Below are positions 2,623-29,039 of a stretch of 64,000 nt of DNA, piece after piece. Every line of letters starts with the position of its first letter. Position 1 is the stretch's first letter. Position numbers and translations under genes: made by a program. The notes below the pieces were generated by a model. The model saw only the letters and a list, made by a program, of their open reading frames with translations, was not told the DNA's origin and did no database searches. This DNA is from a virus, in the IMG/VR virus record IMGVR_UViG_3300042469_000981. One strand, given 5' to 3'.

Positions 2623-2632
2623 ATGTTATTTT

Positions 2633-5816: not shown

Positions 5817-5822
5817 TTAGTT

Positions 5823-6074: not shown

Positions 6075-6076
6075 AA

Positions 6077-8485: not shown

Positions 8486-8489
8486 TTAA

Positions 8490-8771
8490 TTAAGCTGCTG
8501 AACCTGAAGGGAATGGATTAGGATCTGTCCATTCTGGAGTTGCTAAAATAGTTAAAATCTCATCGTATGTGTATTCGATTGATTTTGTAGTTAAAGCAGC
8601 AACTGATGAAGGTTGAGGCATATCGTATTTAACGAATGTTTGAGTTTTATCAACTGATTTACGAACTGTATCAATTGAGGTTTCATAGACTTGATTAAAG
8701 TCGATTAAAGGAAGTTCTGTAACGTTAAAAATTACAAAGCGTCTGTTTGCGTATTCTTCTTGTGTTGTCAT
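8490..8771 (-). CDS. Small partner protein of LamG/Gly-rich fibre gene (paralogue of 5823..6074)
   Basis: 93 aa; alignment by eye to 5823..6074; own ATATTTATAA motif at 8784..8793. Confidence 0.65.
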   Translation of the reverse strand: MTTQEEYANRRFVIFNVTELPLIDFNQVYETSIDTVRKSVDKTQTFVKYDMPQPSSVAALTTKSIEYTYDEILTILATPEWTDPNPFPSGSAA

Positions 8772-8796
8772 TTTATTATTTTGTTATAAATATTAA

Positions 8797-12017: not shown

Positions 12018-12026
12018 AGTGTATGA

Positions 12027-12410
12027 TTATAAATATGGAGAACCGGTAGGTGCTGAACCTGTAGGACATTCAAATCGTTCGCAATAATCTTTTTGGTAAA
12101 TAGGCATTGCATTACCAAATGTGGTTAACTCTGTACCAGGAAAAGGCCATACCTCACTTGAACTGAAATTAGGTAATGGTTCTTGATTCCATAAAATATC
12201 TACTGCTGATGCTGTAGACCAAAGTGAGCAAGACATAATAGGCATTCCCATAGGAGAGCTTGCGCTTACATACTGTTCACAAATTGGACCCATAACATAA
12301 ACTGTTTGGGTATATTGCCAAGTTGTTTCACCACCAGGTGTTGTAATGCTTTGTGTTATCTCATTTAATAGAGATAAATCATTCATTAAATATTTTCTGT
12401 ATTGATACAT
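12027..12410 (-). CDS. Hypothetical small virion-associated protein (Cys-containing)
   Basis: 127 aa ORF in tightly packed operon; ends PTGSAPTGSPYL. Confidence 0.55.
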   Translation of the reverse strand: MYQYRKYLMNDLSLLNEITQSITTPGGETTWQYTQTVYVMGPICEQYVSASSPMGMPIMSCSLWSTASAVDILWNQEPLPNFSSSEVWPFPGTELTTFGNAMPIYQKDYCERFECPTGSAPTGSPYL

Positions 12411-12411
12411 A

Positions 12412-12750
12412 TTAAATTGATCCAGTTGGCATACAAGGTACTTCTACCCAATTAATAATTGATTCATCCCAAACGTAACACTTACCATCATTTGGATAAG
12501 GCACAGGAGCTACCCAATCATAATTTGAGTCTAAAACCCAAGACGGGTAAGGTTGGGGACATATAAATACATTTGCTTCAGCATCGTAGGTATAACCTAT
12601 ACCCGCGTATTGTTTGCGGAATGAACCGTCTATTGATGTCTCTATCCAATTAGTAGGATCGCCTTCGGCGCCTGTATTGATAAATTCTTGAGTGGCTACT
12701 ATAACAGTAGTAACAACACTGTATTGGTTTATGTGTGCGAAGTATCCCAT
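12412..12750 (-). CDS. Conserved phage tail-associated small protein
   Basis: 112 aa; MGYFAHI...FRKQYAGIGYTYD...FICPQPYPSWVLD...W.APVPYP.DG..Y.WDE pattern typical of proteins adjacent to Gly-rich fibre genes. Confidence 0.65.
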   Translation of the reverse strand: MGYFAHINQYSVVTTVIVATQEFINTGAEGDPTNWIETSIDGSFRKQYAGIGYTYDAEANVFICPQPYPSWVLDSNYDWVAPVPYPNDGKCYVWDESIINWVEVPCMPTGSI

Positions 12751-12929
12751 TGTGTTTTATCTTTTTCTATTTGTTCGTTTATTTCTTCCCAAGTAGGAGG
12801 TTGTGTTCCTGTAGGATCATTCCACTTGGTAAATGTTGTATTATATAATTCAAATTGAGCATGTGGACGTAATTTTTTAACTGCTACATCTACACCCCAT
12901 AACCCTAAATATTGTTCAAAAATATCCAT
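12729..12929 (-). CDS. Small tail-associated protein (XkdW-like N-terminus)
   Basis: 66 aa; AVKKLRPHAQFEL...KWNDPTGTQPPTWEEI pattern. Confidence 0.5.
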   Translation of the reverse strand: MDIFEQYLGLWGVDVAVKKLRPHAQFELYNTTFTKWNDPTGTQPPTWEEINEQIEKDKTQWDTSHT

Positions 12930-12930
12930 A

Positions 12931-15541: not shown

Positions 15542-16657
15542 TTATAAAGCAGTAATGAAGTAAGTTTCATATCCTCCATGACACCAACCGTAACCAAGTG
15601 GGAATTTCTCACTCATTAAATCATGAATAGAATTTTCCGGAATGTTACTACGTTCATCAAACTTTAGTTTAATGTGGATGCCTGGATTAGTTTGTTTTAG
15701 TTTATCTATAATGTTAGTTAGACTACTGAATGTTTGTTCGTTAAGGCAAACTATAACTTCGTCAAATTTCATATCTGAAGTACTATCAAAGTACAAATCA
15801 TGATCAAAGAATAATTCCTTTAGTAGCTGACGTTCATATACCTTAATATCTTCTTTTACATAAAGTATACTCTGTCTTGAAGATGCTGTATTAAAATCAC
15901 CCATAGCAAAATCTCTAGATTGATACTTGATAGGTAGGTAGTATAATGAGGTTGTTAGTTTGTCTGGATTGTTTAAGTAAGGGAACTTGCTTTCAATAAA
16001 TAATCTTTCTGCTTCAATCTCAGCATAAGTTTCACCTGATCTTCCTGGTTCTCTTGAAAATGTGTCTATTGAGTAGTTATACTCATATAAGGTTCTAGGA
16101 ATATACAACCATTTTCCTTTAGTTTCAACATATCTAACTATGTTAGTATCGTTTTGATACCACTTTAATTGACCCTCGTCAAAACTAGGTATAATATTTC
16201 TCCAAGCCCGTCCCATTGGGGTATAGTTAAAAGTAGATATTTCTTCATAATCATAGTGGCCTCCTCCTTGAATTTCTACAAATTCACCTTTTTCATTTAT
16301 ATTTTTTGAATAACAGCTTATACCCGCTACATCAGGATGTTTTAAAAATAAGTGATTGTAAACCTCTAAAATGCGAGGATAAGCATAATCATCACTATCA
16401 AACTGAATTACTATTTCTCCGGTTGTTCCAGATTGTGGATTATAAAAGCATTCTTTTTTTCTAGACTGCTGATAGTACTTTACTCTAGAATCTTTTTTAC
16501 AAATTTCCTTTAGTAATTCTTCAGCATTGTTATAGTCTGAAAAGTCATCAGTAACAATCCATTCCCAATCTTGATGGGTTTGGTCTAGAATTTGTTTGTA
16601 TAGTTTTTCAACTAAATGGCTTCTTCTATAGAATGATGTGCTTATACTAAATTTCAT
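15542..16657 (-). CDS. Glycosyltransferase family 2 (GT-A fold)
   Basis: MKFSISTSFY...QTHQDWEWIVTDDFS...IQFDSDD (DxD); start moved to 16657 for an ATGA overlap with the upstream stop. Confidence 0.85.
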   Translation of the reverse strand: MKFSISTSFYRRSHLVEKLYKQILDQTHQDWEWIVTDDFSDYNNAEELLKEICKKDSRVKYYQQSRKKECFYNPQSGTTGEIVIQFDSDDYAYPRILEVYNHLFLKHPDVAGISCYSKNINEKGEFVEIQGGGHYDYEEISTFNYTPMGRAWRNIIPSFDEGQLKWYQNDTNIVRYVETKGKWLYIPRTLYEYNYSIDTFSREPGRSGETYAEIEAERLFIESKFPYLNNPDKLTTSLYYLPIKYQSRDFAMGDFNTASSRQSILYVKEDIKVYERQLLKELFFDHDLYFDSTSDMKFDEVIVCLNEQTFSSLTNIIDKLKQTNPGIHIKLKFDERSNIPENSIHDLMSEKFPLGYGWCHGGYETYFITAL

Positions 16658-17268
16658 GGTTTCCAGATTCCTATCCCACCGAAGTGTTCTTTTTGTCCAA
16701 AACAAGTTGTTTTACCTGATGATTTTATAGTAACTATGTTAGTTTTAGAACCATAAGATAGGTCCTGCCAAAATTTATATACCTGTCCACCAGCACCATC
16801 TCTAAAGATATGGTCAGGATCAATATCATGAAACACAATATACCCTCTAGGTGACAATAATTCTTGATATAATTCAAAATCACGTCTTACACCTTCATAT
16901 GAATGATCTCCATCAATAAAAATTAGATCATATTCAGGGCAGAACTCTTTAACTTTATCTCTTGTTTCTTCAGTTTGTGAATCAGCTATAAATAACTTAA
17001 AGTCTTCTCCATACATCATATAGTGAGACCAAATTGTTCTACCTTTATCCTCATAATCAACAGCTGCTTTTTTACCTGTTGATAATTGAGACATAATATG
17101 AAATGAACTTCCTTTAAATCCAATTTCTAGGATATTGTTAGCTTGAAATCCTTTAAGCCAGTAACCAAATGTAGTTATCTCCTCATAAACCTGCTGGAAT
17201 AAAGTAGGTTCGATAAGGAAATCCTTAACATGATAGTCAATTAATTCCTGTATACTTATGTCTTTCAT
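16654..17268 (-). CDS. Class I SAM-dependent methyltransferase (Methyltransf_24-like, probable sugar O-methyltransferase)
   Basis: 204 aa; ILEIG motif I, YDLIFIDGDHSYEGVRRDF, GYIVFHD. Confidence 0.85.
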   Translation of the reverse strand: MKDISIQELIDYHVKDFLIEPTLFQQVYEEITTFGYWLKGFQANNILEIGFKGSSFHIMSQLSTGKKAAVDYEDKGRTIWSHYMMYGEDFKLFIADSQTEETRDKVKEFCPEYDLIFIDGDHSYEGVRRDFELYQELLSPRGYIVFHDIDPDHIFRDGAGGQVYKFWQDLSYGSKTNIVTIKSSGKTTCFGQKEHFGGIGIWKP

Positions 17269-18218
17269 TAGCTAAAAAAGAATACTGTTCCGTTTTCACT
17301 TTCAATATTACATCCATCTTCAAATTGGCATTTAAATCCTAATGAATTAAAACGTTCAACTATAGAATTTAAACGTCCTTGTGAATTGTGGTATTCTAAA
17401 AGAATTTTATCTGTTATTTCGAATATAGCATTTGATGTACTATCAATAACATTCCATTCTTCACCTTCAATATCTAATTTTAAAAGATTAATTTTATTCC
17501 AACCTAAAGTATTTACTACATTCTGCAGGGTTGTTGTTTGTACTATTTTAGTATTAGGATTATCGAAAGTAGAAAATTCACTGTGCTGAATATCTAAAGT
17601 TGAGATTAAAGGATTATCTTCCTTCCAGTATAAAGCGGTTTGTTCTTCTCGGTCAGATAGTGCTTCACCGATAATAGTTATATTAATATTATCTAAAAAA
17701 TTACTAATTAAAGCCTTGATGCTTCTATCATCACATTCTATAGCAGCTACAAGCTTGGCTCCTTTATTTAAAATGTATTGAGTAAATAAACCGACACTGG
17801 CCCCAGCGTCAATTACCTTCTCACAATTACTCAAATCAAAGTCTTTATATTTGTCATCAACAAAAAACTCTCGGTAATTAACAAATGATGGATGGTAGTA
17901 ATCGTTTATATTCTGTTTATGCTTGTATAGATTAGTGTATCTAAACCTCAAAATGATTCTGTCTAAGACTACACCTTCATCAATTAATTCTAAGGTAAAA
18001 CCTCCAAAATCCTCTCTACTAAAATCAAATCCGTGTTTAGGGGTTGGTTGGAAGAATACATAAAGACCGGGTTGTACGTCCCATATCTTCATTTTGTATA
18101 TAGTAGCATCTAAATCAATGTCTTTAGCTACTATGTAACCATTCTTAACAGGGTGATAAACACGAAGATCAATTCGCTGTTCATCAAAATTGTAATTTAT
18201 TAATTCAAAACTTTTCAT
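17268..18218 (-). CDS. FkbM-family methyltransferase with extra N-terminal domain
   Basis: 316 aa; VIDAGASVGLF, IECD, INLLKLDIEGEE, ILLEYH. Confidence 0.9.
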   Translation of the reverse strand: MKSFELINYNFDEQRIDLRVYHPVKNGYIVAKDIDLDATIYKMKIWDVQPGLYVFFQPTPKHGFDFSREDFGGFTLELIDEGVVLDRIILRFRYTNLYKHKQNINDYYHPSFVNYREFFVDDKYKDFDLSNCEKVIDAGASVGLFTQYILNKGAKLVAAIECDDRSIKALISNFLDNINITIIGEALSDREEQTALYWKEDNPLISTLDIQHSEFSTFDNPNTKIVQTTTLQNVVNTLGWNKINLLKLDIEGEEWNVIDSTSNAIFEITDKILLEYHNSQGRLNSIVERFNSLGFKCQFEDGCNIESENGTVFFFS

Positions 18219-18243: not shown

Positions 18244-18990
18244 TTACCCTAGTAACGGGACTATCCCGGCGTAGAGTGGTTCTCCAGTTATGCTAAATGG
18301 AGTTGTGTCTCCTCCAAGTACAACTGCTCCTTTAACTAAGTTACCGGCACTCAAACCAAGTGTATTCTGTATTGTATAACTGTTTTCTGTGTAAGCTAAA
18401 ATATTTGCTACAATCCTAGCTTTGTCTCCAGGTGTAGCTAAGTTAAAGCTAAATGGTGGTTGTGTCCAAGAAATATTATTTATCAAACTTACCCAAGTTC
18501 CTTCTGATGCTAGTGGGTTAGATGAATTAGGTAATCCTCTTTGTGATTTCCATCCATTCTGAAATAAATCATCTTCGTCGGTGAAAGCGTACTGTACTAT
18601 GTGAGATCCAGCGGCGAATGTAGAATCATTCAACGAAGGTGTTACTATGTAGTAAGCATTACCTGCAGGTTCATTAAGTGAAGTAAAGGTTACTCCTGGT
18701 GCTGCTGTAGCAATAGAGGCAGAGTCTATAGTATAAGCCGATAATTGAACGAAGTATAATTTACCTCTAGTTGTTCCTACAGGATAGGGAGTATACATTT
18801 GAAAGTCTTTTAATGCATTATTTCCTCTACTTCCAGTAGGCCATGTAAATTTATTATTTGGAGTAGAGGGAGGTGTGATGCCTAAGTAAGCATAGTTGTA
18901 GTTACTAGAAGCCATTTGGCCATTCCAAAAAGTATCTAATGATCCTGTGTTATTAGCACCTACGCCGGTTGCCATCCAAATTCCTGCCAT
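18244..18990 (-). CDS. Hypothetical protein, probably structural, embedded in glycosylation cluster
   Basis: 248 aa, G/T/N/S-rich and low in charge; own ATATTTATTA motif at 18995..19004. Confidence 0.5.
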   Translation of the reverse strand: MAGIWMATGVGANNTGSLDTFWNGQMASSNYNYAYLGITPPSTPNNKFTWPTGSRGNNALKDFQMYTPYPVGTTRGKLYFVQLSAYTIDSASIATAAPGVTFTSLNEPAGNAYYIVTPSLNDSTFAAGSHIVQYAFTDEDDLFQNGWKSQRGLPNSSNPLASEGTWVSLINNISWTQPPFSFNLATPGDKARIVANILAYTENSYTIQNTLGLSAGNLVKGAVVLGGDTTPFSITGEPLYAGIVPLLG

Positions 18991-18993
18991 ATA

Positions 18994-20187
18994 TTAATAA
19001 ATATCCAAAAGTTTATTAACTGACATAATTACTTGATCTGGAGTAATAGTTTTAGTACATTCAAATTGGCGAGGGGTATCTTTATGGTCTGGACACCATT
19101 CCCAGTCGCCTGGATCTAACCATTTGCGGTTAAAACATCCTTTACATGTTTTAGGATCTTCAGGATAAACACGTTCACATTCCTGGAATTCAGTATATGG
19201 ATGGCTAAATCCTGAAATCATAATTGTAGGTGTGTTTAAAGACCAGGATAACCAACTTAATCCACTACCTACACCAATAAACATTTTAGCATCCCTAATA
19301 TCAACCATTCTGTCTTGTAATGGTAAATCTCCAGTTTTATTAATTACACCTGTTAAAGTACCTCCTAGTTTAGAGTCATGCCATTCATCACCTAAAGGCT
19401 CTTGAGTAAGCATTACTACTTTATAACCTTTATCATTTAAATAATCAATAACAGTTTGCCATCCTCCTTTATAATTCCAATACTTAGCATGGGCTGAAGC
19501 ATGAGGAGCAATAACAACATAATCACCTTTAATATCTGTTTTTGTTTTAGGTGAGTTTATAATAGGTTTAACTTCAGAGTATTTTAACCCTAAAATTTCA
19601 CTTGCTGTTTGTTGTAAAGGATATTTTTTAAAGTCAATTGGTATCTTATCAAATATAACTTTTTTATCATCATAAAACCAACCAAGATTATACATTGCAT
19701 AAAGGTTATCTACTTGAGAACCAGGTTTTACAAACTCAATATGTGGGTAATTTCCTTCAAACCATTCATTGTGGAATGTAGAACAAATTACATCACACAT
19801 AAATGTTTTTCTAAATTCTTCAATGTAAGGGAACCATGCTAAAGTATCACCCATAGCCCCAGAATCAATGTGTATATAAACGCGTTTATCTTTTACACAC
19901 CAATCATGATCAAATACTAAATTGTTGTTACTATAAACTTCTATACGCCAATTAACACAATATTTAATGTTGGTACGAGTCCACATATTGTTATTAATTG
20001 TACTTTCATGTAATACACGATTTGTTTTTTTATTAATAAATTTAACTTTATATTCTTGTTCTGATGGTCCTAAAACTTCTAAGAAAGCACCATTAACAAA
20101 ATTAACATTAAAAGTGTTTTGTGGTTTTTTGTTTTTAATATTTAATATTTTAGTATTACTATATTCTTTAACCAATATGTCTTTCAT
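18994..20187 (-). CDS. tibC: Aah/TibC-type (BAHT, autotransporter strand-loop-strand) protein O-heptosyltransferase homologue
   Basis: 397 aa; N-terminal beta domain ending KYCVNWRIEV; GAMGDTLAWFPY; FIGVGSGLSWLSWSLNTPTIMISGFSHPYTEF; CKGC-x13-C-x11-C in WCPDHKDTPRQFECTK, the Fe-binding Cys pattern of this family. Confidence 0.85.
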   Translation of the reverse strand: MKDILVKEYSNTKILNIKNKKPQNTFNVNFVNGAFLEVLGPSEQEYKVKFINKKTNRVLHESTINNNMWTRTNIKYCVNWRIEVYSNNNLVFDHDWCVKDKRVYIHIDSGAMGDTLAWFPYIEEFRKTFMCDVICSTFHNEWFEGNYPHIEFVKPGSQVDNLYAMYNLGWFYDDKKVIFDKIPIDFKKYPLQQTASEILGLKYSEVKPIINSPKTKTDIKGDYVVIAPHASAHAKYWNYKGGWQTVIDYLNDKGYKVVMLTQEPLGDEWHDSKLGGTLTGVINKTGDLPLQDRMVDIRDAKMFIGVGSGLSWLSWSLNTPTIMISGFSHPYTEFQECERVYPEDPKTCKGCFNRKWLDPGDWEWCPDHKDTPRQFECTKTITPDQVIMSVNKLLDIY

Positions 20188-21115
20188 ATAAATTTATTAA
20201 TTCAGCAGAACGATTTAACCAGGACAATTTTTCAGCGGTTTGTAAAGATAATTTCCTGTAGTCATTATATTCATTTATGATTGTATCTAACCCACGTAAC
20301 ATTTCTTGTAAATCACGAGGTGATCTCCATAACCCATGGAATGTAGTTTCTTCTTCAATCCATCCAAGTATAGGTAAACCACAAGCTGCTGCCTCTAATA
20401 TAGTTAAATTAGGATGACCTGCTTCTAATTCTGATGGGTGTAAAAAGATTGTATGTGAGTTATAAAGTTGTCTTAATTGTTCATTAGACGGCTCAGTTAA
20501 AATACTTAACTTAGGATAACCAAATATCCAAGGATTGTCATTAAACCAATTTTCATTATTTTTTGGACCAGCTATTGTGATAGGTAAATTAGAAGCCATA
20601 GCTACTTTAATACCTAATTCAAATCCTTTTCTATCATAAGAACCATATCCACCTAAACCATTATTTGCTAACATTAATAAACTATGATAAACAGGTGTTG
20701 TATCATTTGGTTTAAATGTATCTGTATTTACTCCATGAGAAAAATAATGCACATTAGGCAATTCAAAATAATCAACTAAATAACGAGCAGGTACTAAAGA
20801 AAAAATAGATTTTTCCATAGCCTTTCGATTTTGTTTATAAACATCTGAGTCTTTACCGTAATGGTAAGCATGGTGGTCATGATGCTGGAAGATATAAGGT
20901 ATGCCTTTGTCTGCTAATTCTAGGGCTAAGTTAGCAACATGAACCATTACTAAATCATAATCTCCTTTTTTAATTTCATTAGCCCATTTTATATCTACTT
21001 CATGACCTAATTCTTTTAAATTGCATGTAAATTCCCATACAATTTTTTCTATTGCTCCCCATGTGGGTGGAGGAATTGGTATTCCACATCCTGGATTTAC
21101 TTGGCAGATTTTCAT
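20168..21115 (-). CDS. Glycosyltransferase family 4 (GT-B fold)
   Basis: 315 aa; IPPPTWGAIEKIV, SHGVNTDTF, FLHPSELEAGHPNLTILEAAACGLP (E-x7-E type motif). Confidence 0.88.
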   Translation of the reverse strand: MKICQVNPGCGIPIPPPTWGAIEKIVWEFTCNLKELGHEVDIKWANEIKKGDYDLVMVHVANLALELADKGIPYIFQHHDHHAYHYGKDSDVYKQNRKAMEKSIFSLVPARYLVDYFELPNVHYFSHGVNTDTFKPNDTTPVYHSLLMLANNGLGGYGSYDRKGFELGIKVAMASNLPITIAGPKNNENWFNDNPWIFGYPKLSILTEPSNEQLRQLYNSHTIFLHPSELEAGHPNLTILEAAACGLPILGWIEEETTFHGLWRSPRDLQEMLRGLDTIINEYNDYRKLSLQTAEKLSWLNRSAELINLYERHIG

Positions 21116-21117
21116 TT

Positions 21118-21726
21118 TTAATTATGTACAAATAAACACTTATCTATAAAATATGGAATTAACTCATGTTTCATATTTTCTACTAATATTCCATCAGCTG
21201 CTGCTTCATGTTTATCTATTGAATATTTTTTTATAACTTCACTTTTTGTAGTAAATTGACCAAAATCAATATAACTATGTTGGATTTTAGGAATAAAATG
21301 TCCATAATCTTTTTTATTATGACTATGAATATTACTATATTTTCCTAAAATCATTTCCCAATATACAAAATTTACTTCAGGATTCCTAGTAATTGCTAGA
21401 TTAATTTCTTCAAGCAAAATAGGCATAAAGTAATTATCATCATTAGTATGGATAATCCAATCACCGGTTGCTAATTGGGTACCTACTTCTCTGCTATGAT
21501 GACCCCAATGGCCGTGTCTTATTTCTGTATTTGTATATTTAAATCTAGGATCTTTAAGATAATCTTCTAATTGATTTTTATGATTATTATTAAAACCATC
21601 ATGCACTAAAATAACTTCCCAATTACTATAAGTTTGACAAACAATACTTTGAAGATTACATTTAAGCAAGTGTGTTTGTTCCCAACATGGAATAATAAAA
21701 CTAAATTTTGTTTTTTCTATTTTCAT
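21118..21726 (-). CDS. Glycosyltransferase family 2 (GT-A fold)
   Basis: 202 aa; FSFIIPCW, CQTYSNWEVILVHDG, TGDWIIHTNDDNY. Confidence 0.88.
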   Translation of the reverse strand: MKIEKTKFSFIIPCWEQTHLLKCNLQSIVCQTYSNWEVILVHDGFNNNHKNQLEDYLKDPRFKYTNTEIRHGHWGHHSREVGTQLATGDWIIHTNDDNYFMPILLEEINLAITRNPEVNFVYWEMILGKYSNIHSHNKKDYGHFIPKIQHSYIDFGQFTTKSEVIKKYSIDKHEAAADGILVENMKHELIPYFIDKCLFVHN

Positions 21727-21728
21727 AG

Positions 21729-23720
21729 TTAATATAAAGTTAAGACTCCGTTTTTAGGTAATTGATTTTCAATATAATATTCATCAACTATTATTTTTTT
21801 ATTTTCTATTTGAGTTTGATCATGTATATCATAAGATGAATAAACTATAATGTATGTTTTTTTAGGATCAAACATAACTTGTCTAAACCAAGCTATTTTA
21901 TGTAAAACATTTACTGTTTCTTCAAAAAGCATATTCTCATCTTCGTAAACTGTAATGTTAATATTTCTACTATCAGTTGAATTAGCGATATTTAAAAACA
22001 CGGCAAATTGGTCTGGATGTTCTTTAATAGGTAGTACTGAAAAATATTCTACTCGGGAGTAATCTTTATGGGTAAAATTATCTTTTACTAATTTAGTAAA
22101 TTCAGATTCTTCTTCCCAATATATTTTATCAGCATCTTGATTAAAAGTATGGTATGTTAAATTTTCTAATCCGTTAGATTCACTACCCCATTTTACCATT
22201 AATGAATCATATTCTTTAGATGTTTTAATAGGTAAAAAATGATCTAAATAAAATTGAGGTTTAGTAGCTAAAAAATAAGTAATAACTGTATTGCCTTCTA
22301 GTTCTTTTCTTAAACCAACATATGCTTGTTTATTATTTAATATTAAAGATACATTGTCGATATAAGAAGCATTTTCTAAAATATAATCATAATTTAAAAA
22401 GAATATTTTTTTAATACCTAAACTATTAGCTAATGAAGCTGCATTGTAATAATTAGTATACACAGATGGTCCATGATAAACATCATTGTTTTCTCCAGAT
22501 AACATCAAATCTACTCTCCAACTACTATAATCAAACCAAGTATAACTATAGAATGTATGTTTAGTTAAAAGATTATTATTATCATAGATACAATAATCAA
22601 CTATTTCTTGCAGTTCTTTAGGAATTGGTAAGTGTGATGTTAATATAATTTTTCTACCTGTTTTCTTTAAAGACTCAATACATTCTTTAGTTGTTTCAAC
22701 TATAGAGTTTAAAATTGGGTAGGTTGAAACTACTATTGCTTCTTCTTCAGTTTTAGGTAAATTAGAATAATATAAAGTAGATTCAATTAAACTTAAATTA
22801 TAACTAAAATCAGTAAAGTCTAAGTAATTTACATTATAATCATCCCAATAATTAAGATATACAGGTAGGTTATATATTAAAACAGGTATTTGATATGAAA
22901 CTGCTTCTCTAATTACTAGAGGCATTGTTTCTTTATCATTGTTTGTGCCCCTGGATGTAAATAGGAATAGATCCATTGCTTGATAAAAAGCATCTACATC
23001 TGTTCTTTCATTCCACCAAGTTAAATTATTGGGTTTGTTTTTCATTAACGGTTCCCAATAATGTCTAAAGTTGTCGGCTTGATTACCTACACAATGGAAC
23101 TCATATTGAGGTAACGCTTTAGCATATTCAAAAAACTCAGCTTGGTTTTTACGGGGAGTAAATAATCCAATATGAAGAATATGTTTTTTATTAGGATCTA
23201 ATCCTAATTTTTGTAGTGCCCCTGTTCTATCCGGTCTTTCAATATATTCAATAGGATATTCAACTAATACTTTAGGAATGTCTATATCTTTATATTGATT
23301 AATCTGCCATTGTGATACAAACATAAACTTATCCGGGAAAAATTTCTTCTGAGTTGTGTCATAAGATGAGTCATGAGATGTTTCTACAATTTTATACTTT
23401 CTGTCTTGAGTATAAATTTGCTCAGCTATCTTACTATCCATAAAAAACTCAGGTATTTCCTCTAAATGAATAATATCGGGTTGGATATTATTAATAATAT
23501 TGATTAATTGCTGTTTATTATCGTCTAATGTGTAGAACTTTTCAGGGGCAACTAACTGCGTTATCTTATTGCGAGTCACTACTAATATACCACCAGTACA
23601 ATCAACCCATTCAACTAAATAAATATCATAACTATTTTTTAATAGTTCAATTTTTTTAGCTAAATATTGAGGTAATCCTCCTGTCGATAAATGAGGCGCT
23701 ACATATAGTAGTTTCTCCAT
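21729..23720 (-). CDS. GT4 glycosyltransferase fused to a second, probably GT-A-like, domain
   Basis: 663 aa; PHLSTGGLPQY, GLFTPRKNQ, FYQAMDLFLFTS...ETMPLVIREA; second half has AIVVSTYP...ILTSH...FFLNYDY. Confidence 0.8.
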   Translation of the reverse strand: MEKLLYVAPHLSTGGLPQYLAKKIELLKNSYDIYLVEWVDCTGGILVVTRNKITQLVAPEKFYTLDDNKQQLINIINNIQPDIIHLEEIPEFFMDSKIAEQIYTQDRKYKIVETSHDSSYDTTQKKFFPDKFMFVSQWQINQYKDIDIPKVLVEYPIEYIERPDRTGALQKLGLDPNKKHILHIGLFTPRKNQAEFFEYAKALPQYEFHCVGNQADNFRHYWEPLMKNKPNNLTWWNERTDVDAFYQAMDLFLFTSRGTNNDKETMPLVIREAVSYQIPVLIYNLPVYLNYWDDYNVNYLDFTDFSYNLSLIESTLYYSNLPKTEEEAIVVSTYPILNSIVETTKECIESLKKTGRKIILTSHLPIPKELQEIVDYCIYDNNNLLTKHTFYSYTWFDYSSWRVDLMLSGENNDVYHGPSVYTNYYNAASLANSLGIKKIFFLNYDYILENASYIDNVSLILNNKQAYVGLRKELEGNTVITYFLATKPQFYLDHFLPIKTSKEYDSLMVKWGSESNGLENLTYHTFNQDADKIYWEEESEFTKLVKDNFTHKDYSRVEYFSVLPIKEHPDQFAVFLNIANSTDSRNINITVYEDENMLFEETVNVLHKIAWFRQVMFDPKKTYIIVYSSYDIHDQTQIENKKIIVDEYYIENQLPKNGVLTLY

Positions 23721-24083: not shown

Positions 24084-27000
24084 TTAGAAAACACCAGTAA
24101 TTATTCCTCCTACAACATTTATGTTTTGAGTTCCTGGAGGGTTCATTGGGATGTTTATAACTCCAGTATATCCAGGAGCTGCTCCTATAGAATATCCAGT
24201 TGAAGCATTAATTTGACCAGAAACATCTAGAGGATATCCGGGAGATGCTGTACCAATTCCTAATCTACTATTTGTAACATCAGCATATAGGAAAGATACA
24301 CTTTGTATTTGAGTTGTACTTGTAGTTCTAACTAGATAATCAGGTTGATTAGTAAACGTACCACCACTAATACCAGAAGTACCATTAAATGATAAACCTG
24401 AAGTACCAGCTGAACCGCTTGTACCTGAAGTACCGCTTACTGCAGATAAACCAGCAGCCCCTGCTATACCTGAAGTACCAGAGCTACCGGATGTGCCTGA
24501 TGTGCCTGAAGTTTGAGACGCTCCTGAAGCTCCTGCCGCTCCAGAAGTACCATTTGATCCATTCGTACCTGAAGTTCCTGAAGTGTTAGAAGATCCTGAG
24601 GCTCCTGCTGTTCCGTTTGAACCTGCTGAACCTGAAGTGCCAGAAGTATTTGATAAACCACTTGCTCCTGCTAGTCCTGAAGTACCACTTGAGCCTGAAG
24701 AACCACTTGAGCCTGAAGTACCAGAAGTGTTTGAGGATCCAGAAGGACCGGCTGTACCATTTGATCCTGTTGAACCACTAGAACCAGCAGTACCTGATGT
24801 GTTTGAAGATCCTGAAGGGCCAGCGGTTCCATTAGAACCTGTTGAACCTGAAGAACCACTAGTTCCTGATGTACTTGATACACCTGAACCACCATCTACT
24901 CCTGATGTACCTGTACTTCCAGACGAACCACTTGAGCCAGATGTTCCTGAAGTATTAGATGAACCTGAAGGGCCTGCGGTTCCATTTGAACCTGTAGATC
25001 CGCTTGAACCTGAAGTGCCAGAAGTGTTAGATGAACCTGATGGACCTGCTGTACCATTTGATCCTGTTGATCCAGAAGAACCAGATGTTCCTGATGAACT
25101 TGAAGAACCAGAAGCGCCTGCTGTACCGTTAGATCCTGATGAACCTGAAGTACCAGAAGTGGCACTTACTGCTGAAAGACCAGCAGCACCTGCTATACCA
25201 GAAGTACCTGAAGAACCGGATGTACCACTTGTTCCTGAGGTTGTTGAACTTCCAGAGGCACCTGCTGTTCCATTAGAACCAGTTGAGCCAGAAGTTCCAG
25301 AAGTATTAGAAGAGCCTGAAGCTCCAGCCGTTCCATTAGAACCAGTAGAACCACTAGTACCTGATGTGTTAGATAAACCTGAGTTCCCTGCTGTACCACT
25401 TGAGCCTGTAGAACCACTAGTTCCAGAAGTGCCGGAAGTATTGGAGGATCCAGATGGACCTGCTGTACCATTAGAACCGGTTGATCCTGAAGTACCGCTT
25501 GTACCTGAAGTAGATGATGCTCCTGAATTACCTGCTGCACCTGATGATCCATTTGAACCAGCTGAACCTGAAGTTCCAGATGTATTAGATATACCACTAG
25601 CTCCTGCTAATCCGGATGTTCCGCTTGAACCAGATGATCCACTAGAACCTGAAGTGCCAGAAGTGTTAGATGAACCTGATGGACCTGCTGTACCATTTGA
25701 TCCTGTTGATCCAGAAGAACCAGATGTTCCTGATGTATTAGAAGATCCAGAAGGACCTGCAGTTCCATTAGAACCTGTTGATCCACTTGAACCTGAAGTA
25801 CCGGAAGTAAAGGATGTACCTGAAGGGCCTGCTGTTCCATTTGAACCTGTTGACCCTGATGATCCACTAGTACCAGAAGTACTTGAAACGCCTGAACCTC
25901 CATCAACACCAGAAGTACCTGTTGAACCAGAAGATCCAGAAGAACCAGATGAGCCGCTTGTTTGTGATGCTCCACTAGCTCCTGCACTACCATTTGATCC
26001 TGTAGAACCAGAAGTACCAGAAGTGCCTGAAGAATTTGATTGCCCTGAATTACCTGCTGTACCTGAACTCCCTGTTGAACCAGATGATCCGCTTGAACCT
26101 GAAGTAAAAGATTCTCCAGATGCTCCTGCGTTTCCTGAAGTACCATTTGATCCTGAAGAACCGCTTGATCCTGAAGTACCAGAAGTGCCTGAAGAAGAAG
26201 ATGATCCAGAAGCACCAGCAGTACCATTAGAACCTGAACTTCCTGAGGTACCAGAAGTAGCACTTACTGCTGAAAGACCAGCAGCGCCTGCTATACCTGA
26301 AGTACCAGATGAACCGCTTGTTCCTGAAGTACCTGAAGTATTGCTACTACCTGATACTCCTGCACTACCATTTGATCCTGTTGATCCTGAAGTTCCTGAG
26401 GTACCTGAAGTGTTGCCTGTGCCTGAAGCACCTGCTGAACCATTTGATCCAGCTGAACCAGATGTACCTGAAGTTCCACTAGTACCTGAAGAACCACTAT
26501 TTTGTGATAAACCTGAAGTACCTGTTGATCCAGAAGAACCAGAAGTACCTGAGGTTGAACTTTGTCCTGAATTACCTGCCACTCCAGAAGAACCATTTGA
26601 TCCACTTGAACCTGATGTTCCAGAACTAGCTGATTGTCCTGATGATCCATCAACACCTGATGAACCACTTGAACCTGATGAACCACTTGATCCAGAAGTA
26701 CTAGACACTCCTGAAGAACCATTTGATCCTGATGATCCAGATGAACCACTAGATCCACTTGTACCAGAAGTAGAAGAACTTCCTGAGGCACCGGCTGAAC
26801 CATTTGATCCAGCTGAACCACTAGTACCTGATGTATTTGATATACCACTAGCTCCTGCTAATCCTGATGTACCAGAAGAGCCAGAGCTACCTGACGATCC
26901 AGAAGATCCGCTTGAACCAGATGTCCCAGATGTGTTACTTTGTCCTGAAGAACCATTTGACCCTGATGAACCACTTGTTCCTGATGTACCACTAGAACTA

Positions 27001-29039
27001 CTTTCTCCTGAAGAACCATTTGACCCTGATGAACCAGAAGTACCACTAGTACCAGAAGTTCCAGCACTTCCACTTGCCTGAGAAAGACCTGAGGTACCTG
27101 TTGATCCAGAACTACCTGAAGTTCCAGAAGTTGAAGATTGTCCACTATTACCCGCTGCTCCAGAAGAACCATTTGATCCACTAGATCCAGATGTACCTGA
27201 AGTACCGCTTGTACCAGAAGAATTAGATTGTCCACTACTACCTGCTAATCCAGAAGAACCGTTTGATCCAGAGGAACCACTAGTGCCTGAAGTTGAAGAT
27301 TGACCTGATGATCCATCTAACCCGCTTGAACCAGATGAACCGCTTGAGCCAGAAGATCCGCTTGTTCCACTAGTACCTGATGATTGAGATAGACCAGAAG
27401 TACCAGTTGATCCACTTGAACCTGAAGTACCAGAAGTACTTGATTGACCACTATTGCCTGCTACTCCAGATGAACCATTTGATCCAGAACTACCTGAAGT
27501 ACCTGAAGTTGAGGATTGACCTGATGAACCATCTGCTCCTGTTGAACCTGAAGATCCAGAAGAGCCACTGGTTCCTGAAGTTGAAGATTGTCCTGATGAG
27601 CCATTAATACCTGAAGAACCATTTGATCCACTAGATCCAGATGAGCCGCTTGAACCTGATGTTCCACTTGTTGAAGATATTCCTGAGCCTCCATCAACAC
27701 CAGAAGTACCTGAGCTGCCTGAGCTGCCTGAACTACCGCTTGTACCTGATGTACCGCTTGTTTGAGATAAACCATCAGTTCCGGCTGAACCATTTGAACC
27801 TGAAGAACCACTAGTTCCACTAGTACCAGAAGATTGTGATAGACCAGAAGTACCTGTACTACCGCTTGATCCAGAAGTACCTGATGTGCTTGATTGGCCG
27901 CTATTTCCAGCTACACCTGAAGATCCATTTGAACCTGAACTGCCTGAGGTACCAGAGGTAGATGATTGTCCTGATGAGCCATCTAATCCACTTGAACCTG
28001 AAGATCCAGATGAACCACTGGTTCCACTTGAACCTGATATTCCTGATGATCCATCTACTCCGCTTGAACCAGATGAGCCATTTGAGCCTGAAGAACCACT
28101 AGTTCCACTAGTGCCTGATGATTGAGATAAACCTGAAGTGCCTGTTGATCCACTTGATCCAGAAGTACCAGAAGTAGAAGATTGACCTGAGTTACCTGCT
28201 AAACCTGAGGAACCGCTTGAACCTGAACTACCTGATGAACCTGACGTTCCAGAAGAACCATCTTGTCCACTAGAACCAGATGAACCACTTGAGCCAGAAG
28301 ATCCTGAACTACCTGATGATCCACTTGTACCACTACTGCCATCATTACCACTTGAACCAGCAGAACCACTAGATCCAGAAGATCCACTTGTACCACTGAT
28401 TCCTGAAGATTGTGATAGACCAGAAGTACCAGTTGATCCACTTGAACCTGAAGTTCCTGAAGTAGATGATTGTCCACTATTACCTCCTGCTCCTGAAGAA
28501 CCATTTGATCCTGATGAACCAGAAGTTCCACTAGTACCTGAACTTCCTGAAGAACCACTTGAGCCGGATGTACCACTAGTTCCTCCACTTGTTCCTGAAG
28601 AACCTTCTACACCACTAGTTCCTGATGAACCTGTTGAGCCTGATGATCCACTTGTGCCTGCTGTTCCACTTGTACCTGAAGAGCCAGATATTCCTGAGGT
28701 ACCAGATGAACCTCCTGAAGTACCTGAACTTCCGCTTACACCAGAAGTACCATTTGACCCTGATAAACCACTTGAACCTGCTAATCCAGAAGAACCATTT
28801 GATCCAGATGTACCTGAAGTACCTGAGGTGCCTGATGTGCCTGCTGTTCCACTTCCGCCTCCGCCTCCTTGAACTAAAGATACAACACCATCATCGTTTA
28901 TAGTTAAAACGTAACCTTCCCAACCTTCAGTTACAATAGGTAAATTAAATTTATTAAAAGCTAATGACCTATCAAAAAAACCTCTACCTTGGTTTGGGTT
29001 GTCTAAACGATTATTACCTCTGTATCTGTTTTCGGCCAT
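24084..29039 (-). CDS. Giant Gly-Xaa-Yaa (GSS/GTS/GSN) repeat fibre protein
   Basis: 1651 aa; about 1500 aa of triplet repeats; C-terminal RLGIGTASPGYPLDVSG fibre module; own ATATTTATAC motif at 29052..29061. Confidence 0.8.
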   Translation of the reverse strand: MAENRYRGNNRLDNPNQGRGFFDRSLAFNKFNLPIVTEGWEGYVLTINDDGVVSLVQGGGGGSGTAGTSGTSGTSGTSGSNGSSGLAGSSGLSGSNGTSGVSGSSGTSGGSSGTSGISGSSGTSGTAGTSGSSGSTGSSGTSGVEGSSGTSGGTSGTSGSSGSSGSSGTSGTSGSSGSNGSSGAGGNSGQSSTSGTSGSSGSTGTSGLSQSSGISGTSGSSGSSGSAGSSGNDGSSGTSGSSGSSGSSGSSGSSGSSGQDGSSGTSGSSGSSGSSGSSGLAGNSGQSSTSGTSGSSGSTGTSGLSQSSGTSGTSGSSGSNGSSGSSGVDGSSGISGSSGTSGSSGSSGSSGLDGSSGQSSTSGTSGSSGSNGSSGVAGNSGQSSTSGTSGSSGSTGTSGLSQSSGTSGTSGSSGSNGSAGTDGLSQTSGTSGTSGSSGSSGSSGTSGVDGGSGISSTSGTSGSSGSSGSSGSNGSSGINGSSGQSSTSGTSGSSGSSGSTGADGSSGQSSTSGTSGSSGSNGSSGVAGNSGQSSTSGTSGSSGSTGTSGLSQSSGTSGTSGSSGSSGSSGSSGLDGSSGQSSTSGTSGSSGSNGSSGLAGSSGQSNSSGTSGTSGTSGSSGSNGSSGAAGNSGQSSTSGTSGSSGSTGTSGLSQASGSAGTSGTSGTSGSSGSNGSSGESSSSGTSGTSGSSGSNGSSGQSNTSGTSGSSGSSGSSGSSGSSGTSGLAGASGISNTSGTSGSAGSNGSAGASGSSSTSGTSGSSGSSGSSGSNGSSGVSSTSGSSGSSGSSGSSGVDGSSGQSASSGTSGSSGSNGSSGVAGNSGQSSTSGTSGSSGSTGTSGLSQNSGSSGTSGTSGTSGSAGSNGSAGASGTGNTSGTSGTSGSTGSNGSAGVSGSSNTSGTSGTSGSSGTSGIAGAAGLSAVSATSGTSGSSGSNGTAGASGSSSSSGTSGTSGSSGSSGSNGTSGNAGASGESFTSGSSGSSGSTGSSGTAGNSGQSNSSGTSGTSGSTGSNGSAGASGASQTSGSSGSSGSSGSTGTSGVDGGSGVSSTSGTSGSSGSTGSNGTAGPSGTSFTSGTSGSSGSTGSNGTAGPSGSSNTSGTSGSSGSTGSNGTAGPSGSSNTSGTSGSSGSSGSSGTSGLAGASGISNTSGTSGSAGSNGSSGAAGNSGASSTSGTSGTSGSTGSNGTAGPSGSSNTSGTSGTSGSTGSSGTAGNSGLSNTSGTSGSTGSNGTAGASGSSNTSGTSGSTGSNGTAGASGSSTTSGTSGTSGSSGTSGIAGAAGLSAVSATSGTSGSSGSNGTAGASGSSSSSGTSGSSGSTGSNGTAGPSGSSNTSGTSGSSGSTGSNGTAGPSGSSNTSGTSGSSGSSGSTGTSGVDGGSGVSSTSGTSGSSGSTGSNGTAGPSGSSNTSGTAGSSGSTGSNGTAGPSGSSNTSGTSGSSGSSGSSGTSGLAGASGLSNTSGTSGSAGSNGTAGASGSSNTSGTSGTNGSNGTSGAAGASGASQTSGTSGTSGSSGTSGIAGAAGLSAVSGTSGTSGSAGTSGLSFNGTSGISGGTFTNQPDYLVRTTSTTQIQSVSFLYADVTNSRLGIGTASPGYPLDVSGQINASTGYSIGAAPGYTGVINIPMNPPGTQNINVVGGIITGVF
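24360..28860 (-). repeat. 9-bp/tripeptide low-complexity repeat with higher-order units (e.g. 24-aa GSTGSNGTAGPSGSSNTSGTSGSS)
   Basis: Direct reading of translation and DNA (cctgaagtac/cctgatgaac-type units). Confidence 0.95.

What the first reader, a model, noticed from the sequence alone, without database searches (positions are those of the whole stretch)
18994..20187. Phage-encoded Aah/TibC-type protein O-heptosyltransferase homologue with intact catalytic and iron-binding motifs
Seen: GDTLAWF, SGLSWLSW...ISGFS..YTEF and C-x2-C-x13-C-x11-C. Established: Aah/TibC are Fe-containing dodecameric enzymes that hyper-heptosylate Ser residues of repetitive autotransporter passengers (AIDA-I, TibA) using ADP-heptose. 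Seen: no autotransporter is present here, but 4 kb upstream lies a 1651-aa Ser-rich repeat protein. Inference: the enzyme has been repurposed for phage fibres. The donor may differ from heptose because many Bacteroidota lack heptose in LPS.
Basis: partly seen in the sequence, partly recalled or inferred. Interest (0 to 1): 0.88.

Follow-up and report, generated by a model that had tools for sequence, protein, structure and literature searches.

The report
Phage TibC-like enzyme beside collagen-like fibre
A large uncultured phage carries a true relative of the E. coli adhesin-glycosylating enzyme TibC, and it belongs to a separate branch of that family that sits next to Gly-Ser/Thr-Ser repeat proteins, not autotransporters, in both phages and bacteria, so it most likely sugar-coats the phage's own collagen-like fibres, though no experiment has tested this.

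Summary
ORF 18994-20187 (minus strand, 397 aa) is a full-length TibC/Aah homologue. It scores 319.8 bits on TIGR04414 (cut-off 200). Its predicted fold matches TibC at TM 0.81-0.85, against 0.4-0.5 for LPS heptosyltransferases. The catalytic Asp, the four ADP-heptose contact residues and the four iron-finger Cys are all kept.

It is not a canonical autotransporter enzyme. A 99-row tree splits the family in two with full support. Clade B holds the E. coli, Citrobacter and Burkholderia enzymes. AIDA-like neighbours occur in 34 of 50 clade B genome loci, and Gly-Ser/Thr tracts in none. Clade A holds every phage copy plus bacterial copies. Gly-Ser/Thr tracts occur in 18 of 30 clade A genome loci, and autotransporters in none.

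In related phages the order fibre, GT1, GT4, TibC-like, sheath is conserved. Elsewhere the island's GT4, GT2, FkbM and Methyltransf_24 domains are fused to TibC-like domains in single proteins.

The best reading is that the enzyme starts O-glycosylation of the 1651-aa (and probably the 963-aa) collagen-like fibre, probably from host ADP-heptose. The dodecamer-forming thumb motif is not conserved. Nothing here is biochemically shown.

This scan has flagged the same pairing before on other DNA (86 notes, at least 62 genomes), and follow-ups reached the same reading. I found no paper describing it.

The parts
18994..20187 (-). TibC/Aah-family (clade A) GT9 protein O-glycosyltransferase, 397 aa. 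It has an N-terminal beta-barrel, a GT-B core with D114, S231, K235, R293 and W312, and four Cys at 348, 351, 365 and 377.
   Evidence: TIGR04414 319.8 bits. TibC alignment. AlphaFold pLDDT 91.6 and Foldseek TM 0.81-0.85 to 4RAP. Key residues.
20168..21115 (-). GT4/GT1-group glycosyltransferase, 315 aa. Its end overlaps the TibC-like start by 20 nt. It is conserved directly upstream of the TibC-like gene in related phages and is fused to it in other phages and bacteria.
   Evidence: Pfam. tblastn matched it in 73 of 80 related viral loci; the loci printed show it directly upstream of the TibC-like gene. GT4-TibC fusions.
21118..21726 (-). GT2 glycosyltransferase, 202 aa. This is a variable member of the island and was not found in the 80 related viral loci.
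   Evidence: Pfam PF00535 53 bits. 0 tblastn hits in relatives.
21729..23720 (-). GT1-group glycosyltransferase, 663 aa, with a C-terminal half of about 330 aa of unknown family. It is the conserved first gene after the fibre.
   Evidence: Pfam. Present in 58 of 80 related loci, always upstream of GT4 and TibC-like.
24084..29039 (-). 1651-aa collagen-like fibre, almost entirely Gly-Ser/Thr-Ser/Asn triplets, with a globular C-terminal region. It is the proposed main acceptor.
   Evidence: Translation. PHROG tail-fibre and collagen-like families. Its N- and C-terminal ends are conserved upstream of the GT cassette in relatives.
39238..42129 (-). 963-aa second collagen-like Gly-Ser/Thr-Ser fibre. 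It is a probable second acceptor.
   Evidence: Translation. PHROG tail-fibre families.
18244..18990 (-). 248-aa ORF of unknown family directly after the TibC-like gene.
   Evidence: No Pfam, NCBIfam or PHROG hit. The protein atlas gave only unnamed clusters. A 248-aa gene sits at the same position in the 95%-identical relative.
17268..18218 (-). FkbM-family methyltransferase, 316 aa, proposed to O-methylate the glycan.
   Evidence: TIGR01444 70 bits and PF05050. FkbM domains are fused to TibC-like domains in P0139, P0173 and P0204. The Mel-JY01 fusion protein is annotated as FkbM in its record, but Pfam did not report that domain there.
16654..17268 (-). Methyltransf_24 (CmcI/rhamnosyl-O-methyltransferase-like) methyltransferase, 204 aa.
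   Evidence: Pfam PF13578 53 bits. The same domain is fused to TibC-like domains in P0139, P0144 and P0173.
15542..16705 (-). GT2 glycosyltransferase, 387 aa, the last gene of the island.
   Evidence: Pfam PF00535 49 bits. A GT2 gene sits at the same position in the 95%-identical relative.

Best explanation
The gene encodes a soluble, cytoplasmic TibC-like GT-B glycosyltransferase made with the virion proteins late in infection. It most likely transfers a heptose from host-made ADP-heptose onto Ser/Thr hydroxyls in the (Gly-Ser/Thr-Ser)n tracts of the phage's own collagen-like fibres: the 1651-aa protein encoded just upstream, and probably the 963-aa one. Asp114 would act as the catalytic base and Lys235 and Ser231 would hold the beta-phosphate. 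The neighbouring GT4, GT1 and GT2 enzymes would then extend this first sugar, and the FkbM and Methyltransf_24 enzymes would methylate it, giving densely O-glycosylated fibres.

Shown: family membership, fold, retention of the catalytic and donor-contact residues, gene order, and the clade-wide pairing with Gly-Ser/Thr repeat genes. Inferred: the acceptor, the donor, the order of the enzymatic steps, and any effect on fibre folding or host recognition.
For: Family and fold:
- TIGR04414 scores 319.8 bits against a cut-off of 200.
- The alignment to TibC is full-length, E 9e-57.
- The model has pLDDT 91.6, and TibC is the best PDB match at TM 0.81-0.85, against 0.4-0.5 for WaaC and WaaF.

Active site, using the residue roles given in PMC4358343:
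- D110, K230 and W305 equivalents are invariant in 144 family domains.
- The adenine-contact Arg is kept here as R293.
- All ten key residues are invariant in 53 distinct phage homologues at 63-90% identity.

Acceptor:
- Related phages keep the order fibre, GT1, GT4, TibC-like, sheath.
- Most loci with enough upstream sequence show a Gly-X-Y Ser/Thr-rich ORF there.
- In Microcystis phage Mel-JY01, every match to the Gly-Ser-Ser query in its 190 kb lies within a few kb of its GT4-TibC fusion gene.
- In bacterial chromosomes, clade A genes lie 0.1-1.2 kb from signal-peptide or lipoprotein genes with (Gly-Thr-Ser)n tracts, among housekeeping genes.
- The tree splits with 100% SH-aLRT support. Tracts occur in 18 of 30 clade A genome loci and 0 of 50 clade B loci (Fisher p 2e-10, not corrected for relatedness). 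AIDA-like neighbours occur in 0 of 30 and 34 of 50.

Pathway: GT4, GT2, FkbM and Methyltransf_24 domains are fused to TibC-like domains in single proteins.

Donor supply: RfaE-I-like and GmhA-like genes are present in the Flavobacteriales MAG that holds a 58%-identical relative. The RfaE-I-like gene is in 42 of 101 sampled genomes of that order.
Against: - There is no biochemical or mass-spectrometric evidence for any sugar on any protein here.
- The phage loci are related to each other, so conserved gene order may partly reflect shared ancestry.
- In two close relatives (L041, L044) the fibre in that slot is not collagen-like, yet the cassette stays.
- The huge phage LR756504 has a TibC-like gene and no Gly-Ser-Ser match.
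- Five clade A bacterial loci with full or near-full flanks show no tract.
- The huge phage LR756501 has many such fibres, so proximity there is weak evidence.
- No heptose-pathway gene is on the 135.8-kb contig, and the host is not identified.
- The adenine-contact Arg is kept in only 49 of 144 family domains, so donor choice may vary across the family.
- TibC's known acceptor is a Ser in a beta-helix loop, a very different structure from a Gly-X-Y tract.
Confidence: 0.6

Rival explanations
1. The acceptor is the same (the Gly-Ser/Thr-Ser fibres), but the sugar is not heptose. The enzyme would use another nucleotide sugar that the host supplies.
For: No heptose-pathway gene is on the contig. 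The host is unknown. The adenine-contact Arg varies across the wider family, being kept in 49 of 144 domains. The residue at the TibC P300 position, which sets C6 stereoselectivity, is Gly here.
Against: R293, W312, K235 and S231, the four ADP-heptose contacts of TibC, are all kept and are invariant in 53 phage homologues. Every characterised GT9 enzyme among the structural matches that has a named donor uses ADP-heptose. RfaE-I-like genes are common in the order of the Flavobacteriales MAG that carries the 58%-identical relative.
Confidence: 0.25
2. The enzyme glycosylates other or additional virion proteins, such as the sheath, capsid, the 2251-aa protein or other tail proteins. The adjacency to the fibre only reflects the hypervariable fibre region.
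For: The cassette lies between fibre and sheath genes. It stays in relatives whose fibre slot holds a different repeat protein. An unchecked first-reader note reports Ser/Thr-Gly-Ser tripeptides in exposed parts of several virion proteins.
Against: The bacterial two-gene modules pair the enzyme specifically with (Gly-Thr-Ser)n proteins, with no phage structural genes nearby. The replacement fibres in L041 and L044 are also short-period Gly- and Ser/Thr-rich repeats.
Confidence: 0.15
3. The island modifies the host envelope (LPS core, O-chain or a host surface protein) to block superinfection. This is how glycosyltransferases in the tail-fibre regions of aquatic myophages are usually read.
For: This is the published interpretation for pelagimyophage hypervariable regions (PMC7029224). 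GT9 is best known from LPS-core heptosyltransferases.
Against: LPS heptosyltransferase models score far below their cut-offs, for example RfaQ at 39.7 bits against 467, and their folds match poorly at TM 0.4-0.5. The protein has the TibC-specific beta-barrel and four-Cys insert. The clade's conserved partner is a repeat protein in both phages and bacteria. The genes sit in a tight late structural operon.
Confidence: 0.08

Closest known systems
TibC-TibA and Aah-AIDA-I of E. coli: bacterial autotransporter heptosyltransferases (BAHT family; TIGR04414; PDB 4RAP and 4RB4; PMC4358343)
   Same: The architecture is the same: an N-terminal beta-barrel, a GT-B core and a four-Cys insert. The catalytic Asp and the Arg, Trp, Thr/Ser and Lys donor contacts are kept. 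Identity is 33-37% over the full length. The gene is paired with a gene for a long, Ser-rich, short-period repeat protein.
   Different: It belongs to a separate, fully supported sister clade. Its partner is a Gly-Ser/Thr-Ser collagen-like protein and not an AIDA-type beta-helical autotransporter. The hydrophobic beta-hairpin thumb that builds the dodecamer is replaced or deleted. It is phage-encoded, in a structural operon, and embedded in a multi-enzyme glycan island. Relatives are often fused to GT4, GT2 and methyltransferase domains.
LPS-core heptosyltransferases WaaC, WaaF and WaaQ (GT9)
   Same: They share the GT9 GT-B core and the Pfam PF01075 match (42 bits), and probably the ADP-heptose donor.
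   Different: They lack the beta-barrel and the four-Cys insert. Their HMM scores are far below cut-off and their fold match is TM 0.4-0.5. Their acceptor is lipid-linked Kdo or heptose, not protein.
Mycobacteriophage virion glycosylation (Che8 and relatives; Freeman et al. 2023, as cited in PMC11256854)
   Same: Phage-encoded glycosyltransferases that decorate the phage's own virion proteins.
   Different: The enzyme families, hosts and acceptors differ. Those glycans are on the major capsid protein (my recollection adds the tail tube), not on collagen-like fibres. In that system glycans were detected experimentally; here nothing has been measured.
Glycosylated collagen-like proteins: Bacillus anthracis BclA (Gly-Pro-Thr repeats carrying O-linked rhamnose oligosaccharides) and Riftia cuticle collagen (galactosylated Thr). 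Both are cited from my own knowledge, not checked here.
   Same: Ser/Thr in Gly-X-Y repeats serve as dense O-glycosylation sites on a surface fibre. In Riftia the glycan stabilises a triple helix that lacks hydroxyproline.
   Different: The transferases are unrelated. Here the repeats are almost free of Pro and the proposed first sugar is heptose.

Membership tests
BAHT / TIGR04414 (Aah/TibC O-heptosyltransferases) | Scores above the curated cut-off of the family HMM over its full length | tested here: met
   319.8 bits against a cut-off of 200, model positions 12-373 of 374.
BAHT / TIGR04414 | TibC fold: an N-terminal flattened beta-barrel packed on a GT-B catalytic domain | tested here: met
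   The model has strands at residues 25-95 followed by two Rossmann-like lobes, pLDDT 91.6. The best PDB matches are 4RAP and 4RB4 at TM 0.81-0.85 over 378-392 columns.
BAHT / TIGR04414 | Catalytic base Asp110 and donor contacts Thr226, Lys230, Arg286 and Trp305 (PMC4358343) | tested here: met
   The equivalents are D114, S231, K235, R293 and W312. All are invariant in 53 phage homologues.
BAHT / TIGR04414 | Four-Cys iron-finger insert (Cys339, 342, 358 and 370 of TibC) | tested here: met
   C348, C351, C365 and C377 align with the TibC cysteines. Iron binding itself cannot be tested here.
BAHT / TIGR04414 | Beta-hairpin thumb with two successive hydrophobic tip residues (Phe265, Val266) that mediates ring assembly | tested here: not met
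   The aligned residues are Asp-Glu within a longer insert that the model folds as a helix at 268-274. The G-F-V-W-N-H-I-P motif is conserved in clade B but is altered or deleted across clade A.
BAHT / TIGR04414 | Dodecameric ring | not testable with these tools
   This needs SEC-MALS or cryo-EM. The loss of the thumb motif makes a TibC-type ring doubtful but does not exclude other oligomers.
BAHT / TIGR04414 | Partner gene is an AIDA/TibA-type autotransporter | tested here: not met
   There is no PF03797 match in the viral contig. 0 of 30 clade A genome loci have an AIDA-like neighbour, against 34 of 50 clade B loci.
BAHT / TIGR04414 | Transfers heptose from ADP-heptose to Ser of a protein | not testable with these tools
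   This needs an enzyme assay or mass spectrometry.
GT9 LPS-core heptosyltransferases (WaaC/WaaF/WaaQ) | Scores above the family cut-offs and has a two-lobe fold without extra domains | tested here: not met
   RfaQ scores 39.7 bits against 467, heptosyltransferase III 32.3 against 170, and heptosyltransferase I 26.7 against 185. The fold match is TM 0.4-0.5.
Phage virion glycosylation systems | Glycan shown on a virion protein and dependent on phage glycosyltransferases | not testable with these tools
   Only gene context is available: a structural operon next to fibre genes.

The most novel reading that the evidence does not exclude
Dense O-heptosylation by this clade is what lets a virtually proline-free (Gly-Ser/Thr-Ser)n chain form a stable triple helix or stiff rod. 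The sugar would stand in for hydroxyproline. Clade A TibC-like enzymes and their repeat partners would then define a widespread, undescribed class of 'glyco-collagens', used by phages as fibres and by bacteria as secreted or lipid-anchored surface proteins.
Probability: 0.2. Interest if true: 0.85.

Novelty: new variant of a known kind. Interest (0 to 1): 0.63.

Why it matters
TibC and Aah are treated as enzymes dedicated to proteobacterial autotransporter adhesins. The data here show a sister branch that is at least as diverse. The whole-library search found 1645 cluster representatives at 50% identity for the family as a whole, and most of the best 150 are multi-enzyme fusions. The partner of this branch is a different kind of repeat protein, and the branch is common in aquatic phages.

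If the reading holds, many large freshwater and marine phages coat their fibres with methylated heptose-based glycans. That would change how glycosyltransferase islands in phage tail-fibre regions are read, since they are now usually assigned to host LPS modification. It would also bear on host recognition, fibre stability and resistance to proteases. It would supply a simple enzyme-plus-tag pair for glycoengineering, and it would point to unstudied glycoproteins in methanotrophs and other bacteria.

The idea can be tested directly, because a cultured carrier (Microcystis phage Mel-JY01) exists.

Tried and rejected
- Homodimer prediction with two copies and alignment A1 gave no verdict. It says nothing either way.
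- PHROGs has no family for the TibC-like protein.
- Searches of the viral contig for gmhA, rfaE domain I and NAD-dependent epimerases found nothing.
- A weak CTP_transf_like match in an 832-aa ORF near the contig end was not confirmed by a Pfam scan of the whole protein. There is therefore no evidence for phage-encoded sugar activation.
- The protein-atlas look-up of the 248-aa ORF gave only unnamed clusters.
- Literature searches for phage or collagen-linked TibC-type enzymes, for Mel-JY01, and for non-autotransporter BAHT substrates found nothing relevant.
- Megablast of 20 kb against cultured and deposited phages found only low-complexity repeat matches.
- One call failed on a parameter and was corrected.
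- A DNA-glucosylation role was considered and rejected without a specific test, because all homology is to protein and LPS heptosyltransferases.
- A pseudogene was considered and rejected, because the frame is intact and conserved in 322 viral stretches.
Full report
**What is there**

- It scores 319.8 bits (E 2e-95) on NCBIfam TIGR04414, the Aah/TibC equivalog, whose cut-off is 200. The match runs nearly end to end.
- LPS heptosyltransferase models score only 20-40 bits against cut-offs of 170-467. Pfam sees only the generic GT9 domain and a sub-threshold TibC N-terminal domain.
- phmmer aligns residues 22-393 with TibC residues 21-386 (PDB 4RAP, E 9e-57).
- An AlphaFold model built on a 28-sequence alignment has mean pLDDT 91.6. 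Its best PDB matches are the TibC chains (TM 0.81-0.85, E about 1e-36). The GT9 enzymes WaaC and WaaF and a Veillonella GT9 reach only TM 0.4-0.57.
That is not what is seen.

**Setting**

The window is part of a 135.8-kb IMG/VR viral contig. All long genes run on the minus strand and form a myovirus structural module:
- large terminase, portal, major head protein and tail sheath;
- two collagen-like fibre proteins of 963 and 1651 residues, made almost wholly of Gly-Ser/Thr-Ser triplets.

The TibC-like gene is the fourth gene of a tightly packed island that follows the 1651-aa fibre. In order, the island is:
- GT1-group transferase (663 aa);
- GT2 (202 aa);
- GT4 (315 aa, overlapping the TibC-like start by 20 nt);
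- TibC-like (397 aa);
- an ORF of unknown family (248 aa);
- FkbM methyltransferase;
- Methyltransf_24 methyltransferase;
- GT2 (387 aa).

The nearest cultured phages are Flavobacterium phage immuto (major head 53%, terminase 59% identity) and Microcystis phage Mel-JY01 (47% and 51%). A 58%-identical TibC-like gene lies on a contig binned with a Flavobacteriales MAG. A Bacteroidota host is therefore plausible but not shown.

**Active site**

The TibC structure paper (PMC4358343) names these residues:
- Asp110 as the catalytic base;
- Thr226 and Lys230 on the beta-phosphate;
- Arg286 on adenine N1;
- Trp305 on heptose O4;
- Pro300 as the C6 stereoselectivity determinant;
- Cys339, 342, 358 and 370 as the iron ligands;
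- Phe265, Val266 and Phe368 as the thumb contact that builds the dodecamer.

Here the equivalents are D114, S231, K235, R293, W312, G307, C348, C351, C365, C377 and F375.
- Across 144 diverse family domains the Asp and Trp are invariant, the Lys is in 143, and the four Cys are each present in 134-135. The Arg is kept in only 49.
- Within 53 distinct phage homologues at 63-90% identity, all ten residues are invariant.
- There is therefore no sign that the donor pocket has changed.

The thumb is different.
- TibC's Phe-Val tip aligns with Asp-Glu inside a longer insert, which the model folds as a short helix.
- The conserved clade B hairpin motif is altered or deleted throughout the phage-containing clade.
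- A TibC-type dodecamer should not be assumed.

**Who carries it, and next to what**

The family is common in viral contigs. 322 stretches encode a relative.
- tblastn matched the sheath gene in all 80 retained viral loci, the GT4 gene in 73 and the GT1 gene in 58. In every locus printed the order is GT1, GT4, TibC-like, sheath.
- Most loci with several kb of upstream sequence show a 1100-2100-residue Gly-X-Y ORF with 35-57% Ser/Thr on the same strand just before the cassette.
- In this window, about 16.7 kb of extra genes sit between the TibC-like gene and the sheath.
- There are exceptions. In L041 and L044 the fibre slot holds a Gly-Gly-x-x-Asn-Thr-Ala-Ser-Gly repeat protein. L009 has another Ser-rich protein there.

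More distant phages show the same pairing.
- In Mel-JY01 the TibC-like domain is the C-terminal part of a 1226-residue protein that also has a GT4 domain.
- An unannotated open frame of at least 1016 residues, made of Gly-Thr/Ser-Ser triplets, ends 1.7 kb upstream of it.
- Every match to a Gly-Ser-Ser query in that 190-kb genome lies within a few kb of this gene.
- The 735-kb phage LR756501 has a GT4-TibC fusion 5 kb from a collagen-like ORF. It also has at least ten such ORFs genome-wide, so proximity there is weak evidence.
- LR756504 has a TibC-like gene and no such match.

**Bacteria**

A scan of one genome per prokaryotic species found 556 relatives.
- In the 80 best loci, tracts of at least seven Gly-(Ser/Thr/Ala/Gly/Asn)-(Ser/Thr) triplets lie within 3 kb of the gene in 14 loci. 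Only three loci have tracts farther away; one of them also has a near tract, and all three are phage-like contigs whose fibre lies upstream of the cassette.
- The bacterial neighbours are small proteins with a signal peptide or a lipoprotein box, followed by a long (Gly-Thr-Ser)n or (Gly-Ser-Ser)n tract. They occur in Methylococcales, Arenicellales, other Gammaproteobacteria, a Burkholderiaceae MAG and a Pseudobdellovibrionaceae MAG.
- These pairs sit among ORFs that, from their first residues, look like housekeeping genes and not prophage genes (read by eye, not tested).

**Tree**

A 99-row maximum-likelihood tree (quick IQ-TREE search) splits the family across a long branch with 100% SH-aLRT support.
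- Clade B has 53 rows. It holds the plasmid-borne E. coli and Citrobacter rodentium enzymes, a Burkholderia enzyme next to an annotated autotransporter, other Proteobacteria and Negativicutes.
- Clade A has 46 rows. It holds every phage copy and every bacterial copy with a Gly-Ser/Thr neighbour.
- With a looser tract detector, 18 of 30 clade A genome loci hold a tract and 0 of 50 clade B loci do (751 kb searched). Fisher p is 2e-10, uncorrected for relatedness.
- Conversely, 34 of 50 clade B loci and 0 of 30 clade A loci hold an AIDA-like passenger or beta-domain.
- About half of the clade A loci without a tract are short contigs.
- The partner class therefore switches cleanly between the two clades. 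The phage enzyme is not an autotransporter enzyme borrowed by a phage. It is a member of a clade whose usual partner is a Gly-Ser/Thr repeat protein.

**One pathway**

A whole-library HMMER search found 1645 cluster representatives at 50% identity with E up to 0.001, and 771 with E up to 1e-30.
- Of the best 150, only 23 are stand-alone proteins of 450 residues or fewer.
- All eight long ones scanned by Pfam carry a GT9 domain, and seven of them also carry GT4, GT2, FkbM or Methyltransf_24 domains in varied order. These are the same domains that this window encodes as separate neighbouring genes.
- This supports a single pathway that builds and methylates a short glycan.
- A 95%-identical relative on a 307-kb contig adds a sulfotransferase, another GT and another methyltransferase to the island.

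**Donor supply**

- The contig has no gmhA, rfaE or epimerase gene. A weak cytidylyltransferase-like match was not confirmed. The donor must therefore come from the host.
- The Flavobacteriales MAG that carries a relative has a full-length RfaE-domain-I-like gene (294 bits) and a GmhA-like gene (194 bits). Both are just under the strict equivalog cut-offs.
- 42 of 101 sampled genomes of that order have an RfaE-I-like gene at E 1e-77 or better.
- At the E limit of 1e-40 used for that scan, the control genomes that matched were E. coli, Caulobacter and Synechococcus. Bacteroides thetaiotaomicron did not.
- Heptose is therefore plausible in the likely host group, but the host itself is unknown.

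**Reading**

The enzyme most likely starts O-glycosylation of the Gly-Ser/Thr-Ser tracts of the phage's collagen-like fibres, probably with heptose from host ADP-heptose. Its neighbours would extend and methylate the glycan. I put this at about 0.6.

The rivals are:
- the same acceptor with another sugar (0.25);
- other or additional virion acceptors (0.15);
- host-envelope modification, which is the usual reading of such islands (PMC7029224) (0.08).

No step has been shown biochemically.

**Novelty**

- Automated pipelines already name these genes as autotransporter O-heptosyltransferases.
- I found no paper that describes phage copies, the sister clade or the collagen-like partner.
- Phage virion glycosylation as such is known from mycobacteriophages (Freeman et al. 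2023, cited in PMC11256854).
- This scan has noted the same pairing on other DNA: 86 notes in at least 62 genomes, with follow-ups reaching the same reading. I consulted the notes on other genomes after my own analysis. Notes on this genome, including the fibre-glycosylation idea, were seen earlier.
- I class it as a new variant of a known kind.

Noticed in passing
L083:2-3049 (+), Microcystis phage Mel-JY01, PP395634.1: An open frame of at least 1016 residues made of Gly-Thr/Ser-Ser triplets runs off the start of the record and is not annotated. The record instead annotates hypothetical genes on the opposite strand (1-651, 739-2298) and a short same-strand gene (2519-3052) inside the frame. 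These are probably artefacts of the repeat. The TibC-like fusion protein (4750-8430) is annotated only as 'methyltransferase FkbM'.
   Followed up: partly
L044:1-7078 and L041:2-5081 (viral contigs): In two close relatives the collagen-like fibre is replaced by a protein with a Gly-Gly-x-x-Asn-Thr-Ala-Ser-Gly repeat. By eye, its C-terminus resembles the self-cleaving chaperone domain of tail spikes. By eye, the ORFs that follow look like a GT9-like gene (303 aa) and a sulfotransferase-like gene (273 aa). None of this was tested with profiles.
   Followed up: no
L086 (JGI contig of 307,424 bp, 95%-identical TibC-like gene): A very close relative lies on a 307-kb contig, and its island has an extra GT, FkbM, sulfotransferase and other genes. 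The window's phage may therefore be much larger than the 135.8-kb contig and its 83% completeness estimate suggest.
   Followed up: no
L097:10157-12050, L101:8868-11107, L108 and L119 (bacterial genomes): These are chromosomal two-gene modules: a clade A TibC-like gene next to a signal-peptide or lipoprotein gene with a long (Gly-Thr-Ser)n or (Gly-Ser-Ser)n tract. By eye they sit among housekeeping genes. They occur in Methylococcales, Arenicellales and other Proteobacteria. They are candidate unstudied bacterial glycoproteins.
   Followed up: partly
window 3447-15507 (-): A run of large tail proteins (858, 578, 494, 802 and 789 aa) lies between the island and the sheath. Pfam finds Gly_rich_2 and/or Laminin_G_3 (concanavalin-like) domains in the 858-, 578- and 494-aa proteins. 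The 802- and 789-aa proteins share PHROG virion-structural families with them. In the related viral loci examined in detail, the sheath gene follows the TibC-like gene within about 0.3-3.5 kb, so this block is an insertion or expansion here.
   Followed up: partly
LR756501.1 (735-kb phage), e.g. 400-418 kb and 103-124 kb: This huge phage encodes at least ten Gly-Ser-Ser collagen-like open frames, several of 1665-3488 residues. Pieces of one share about 90% DNA identity with the window's fibre gene, probably through repeat similarity.
   Followed up: no
window 24583-27081 (+) and several ORFs of 100-220 aa inside 24084-29039 and 39238-42129: The repeat DNA of the two fibre genes stays open in other frames and on the opposite strand (for example an 832-aa frame). 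These are almost certainly not genes, but gene callers could pick them up.
   Followed up: no
L020:1745-2986 (viral contig): In one relative, two ORFs before the GT1 gene look by eye like 2-oxoglutarate/Fe(II) oxygenases of the prolyl-hydroxylase type, next to a GT2-methyltransferase fusion. This was not tested with profiles.
   Followed up: no
G001-G103 (order of the Flavobacteriales MAG behind L090): 42 of 101 sampled genomes carry a full-length RfaE-domain-I-like kinase scoring 257-334 bits, just under the 345-bit equivalog cut-off. A heptose or related pathway may be commoner in this group than is usually assumed.
   Followed up: partly
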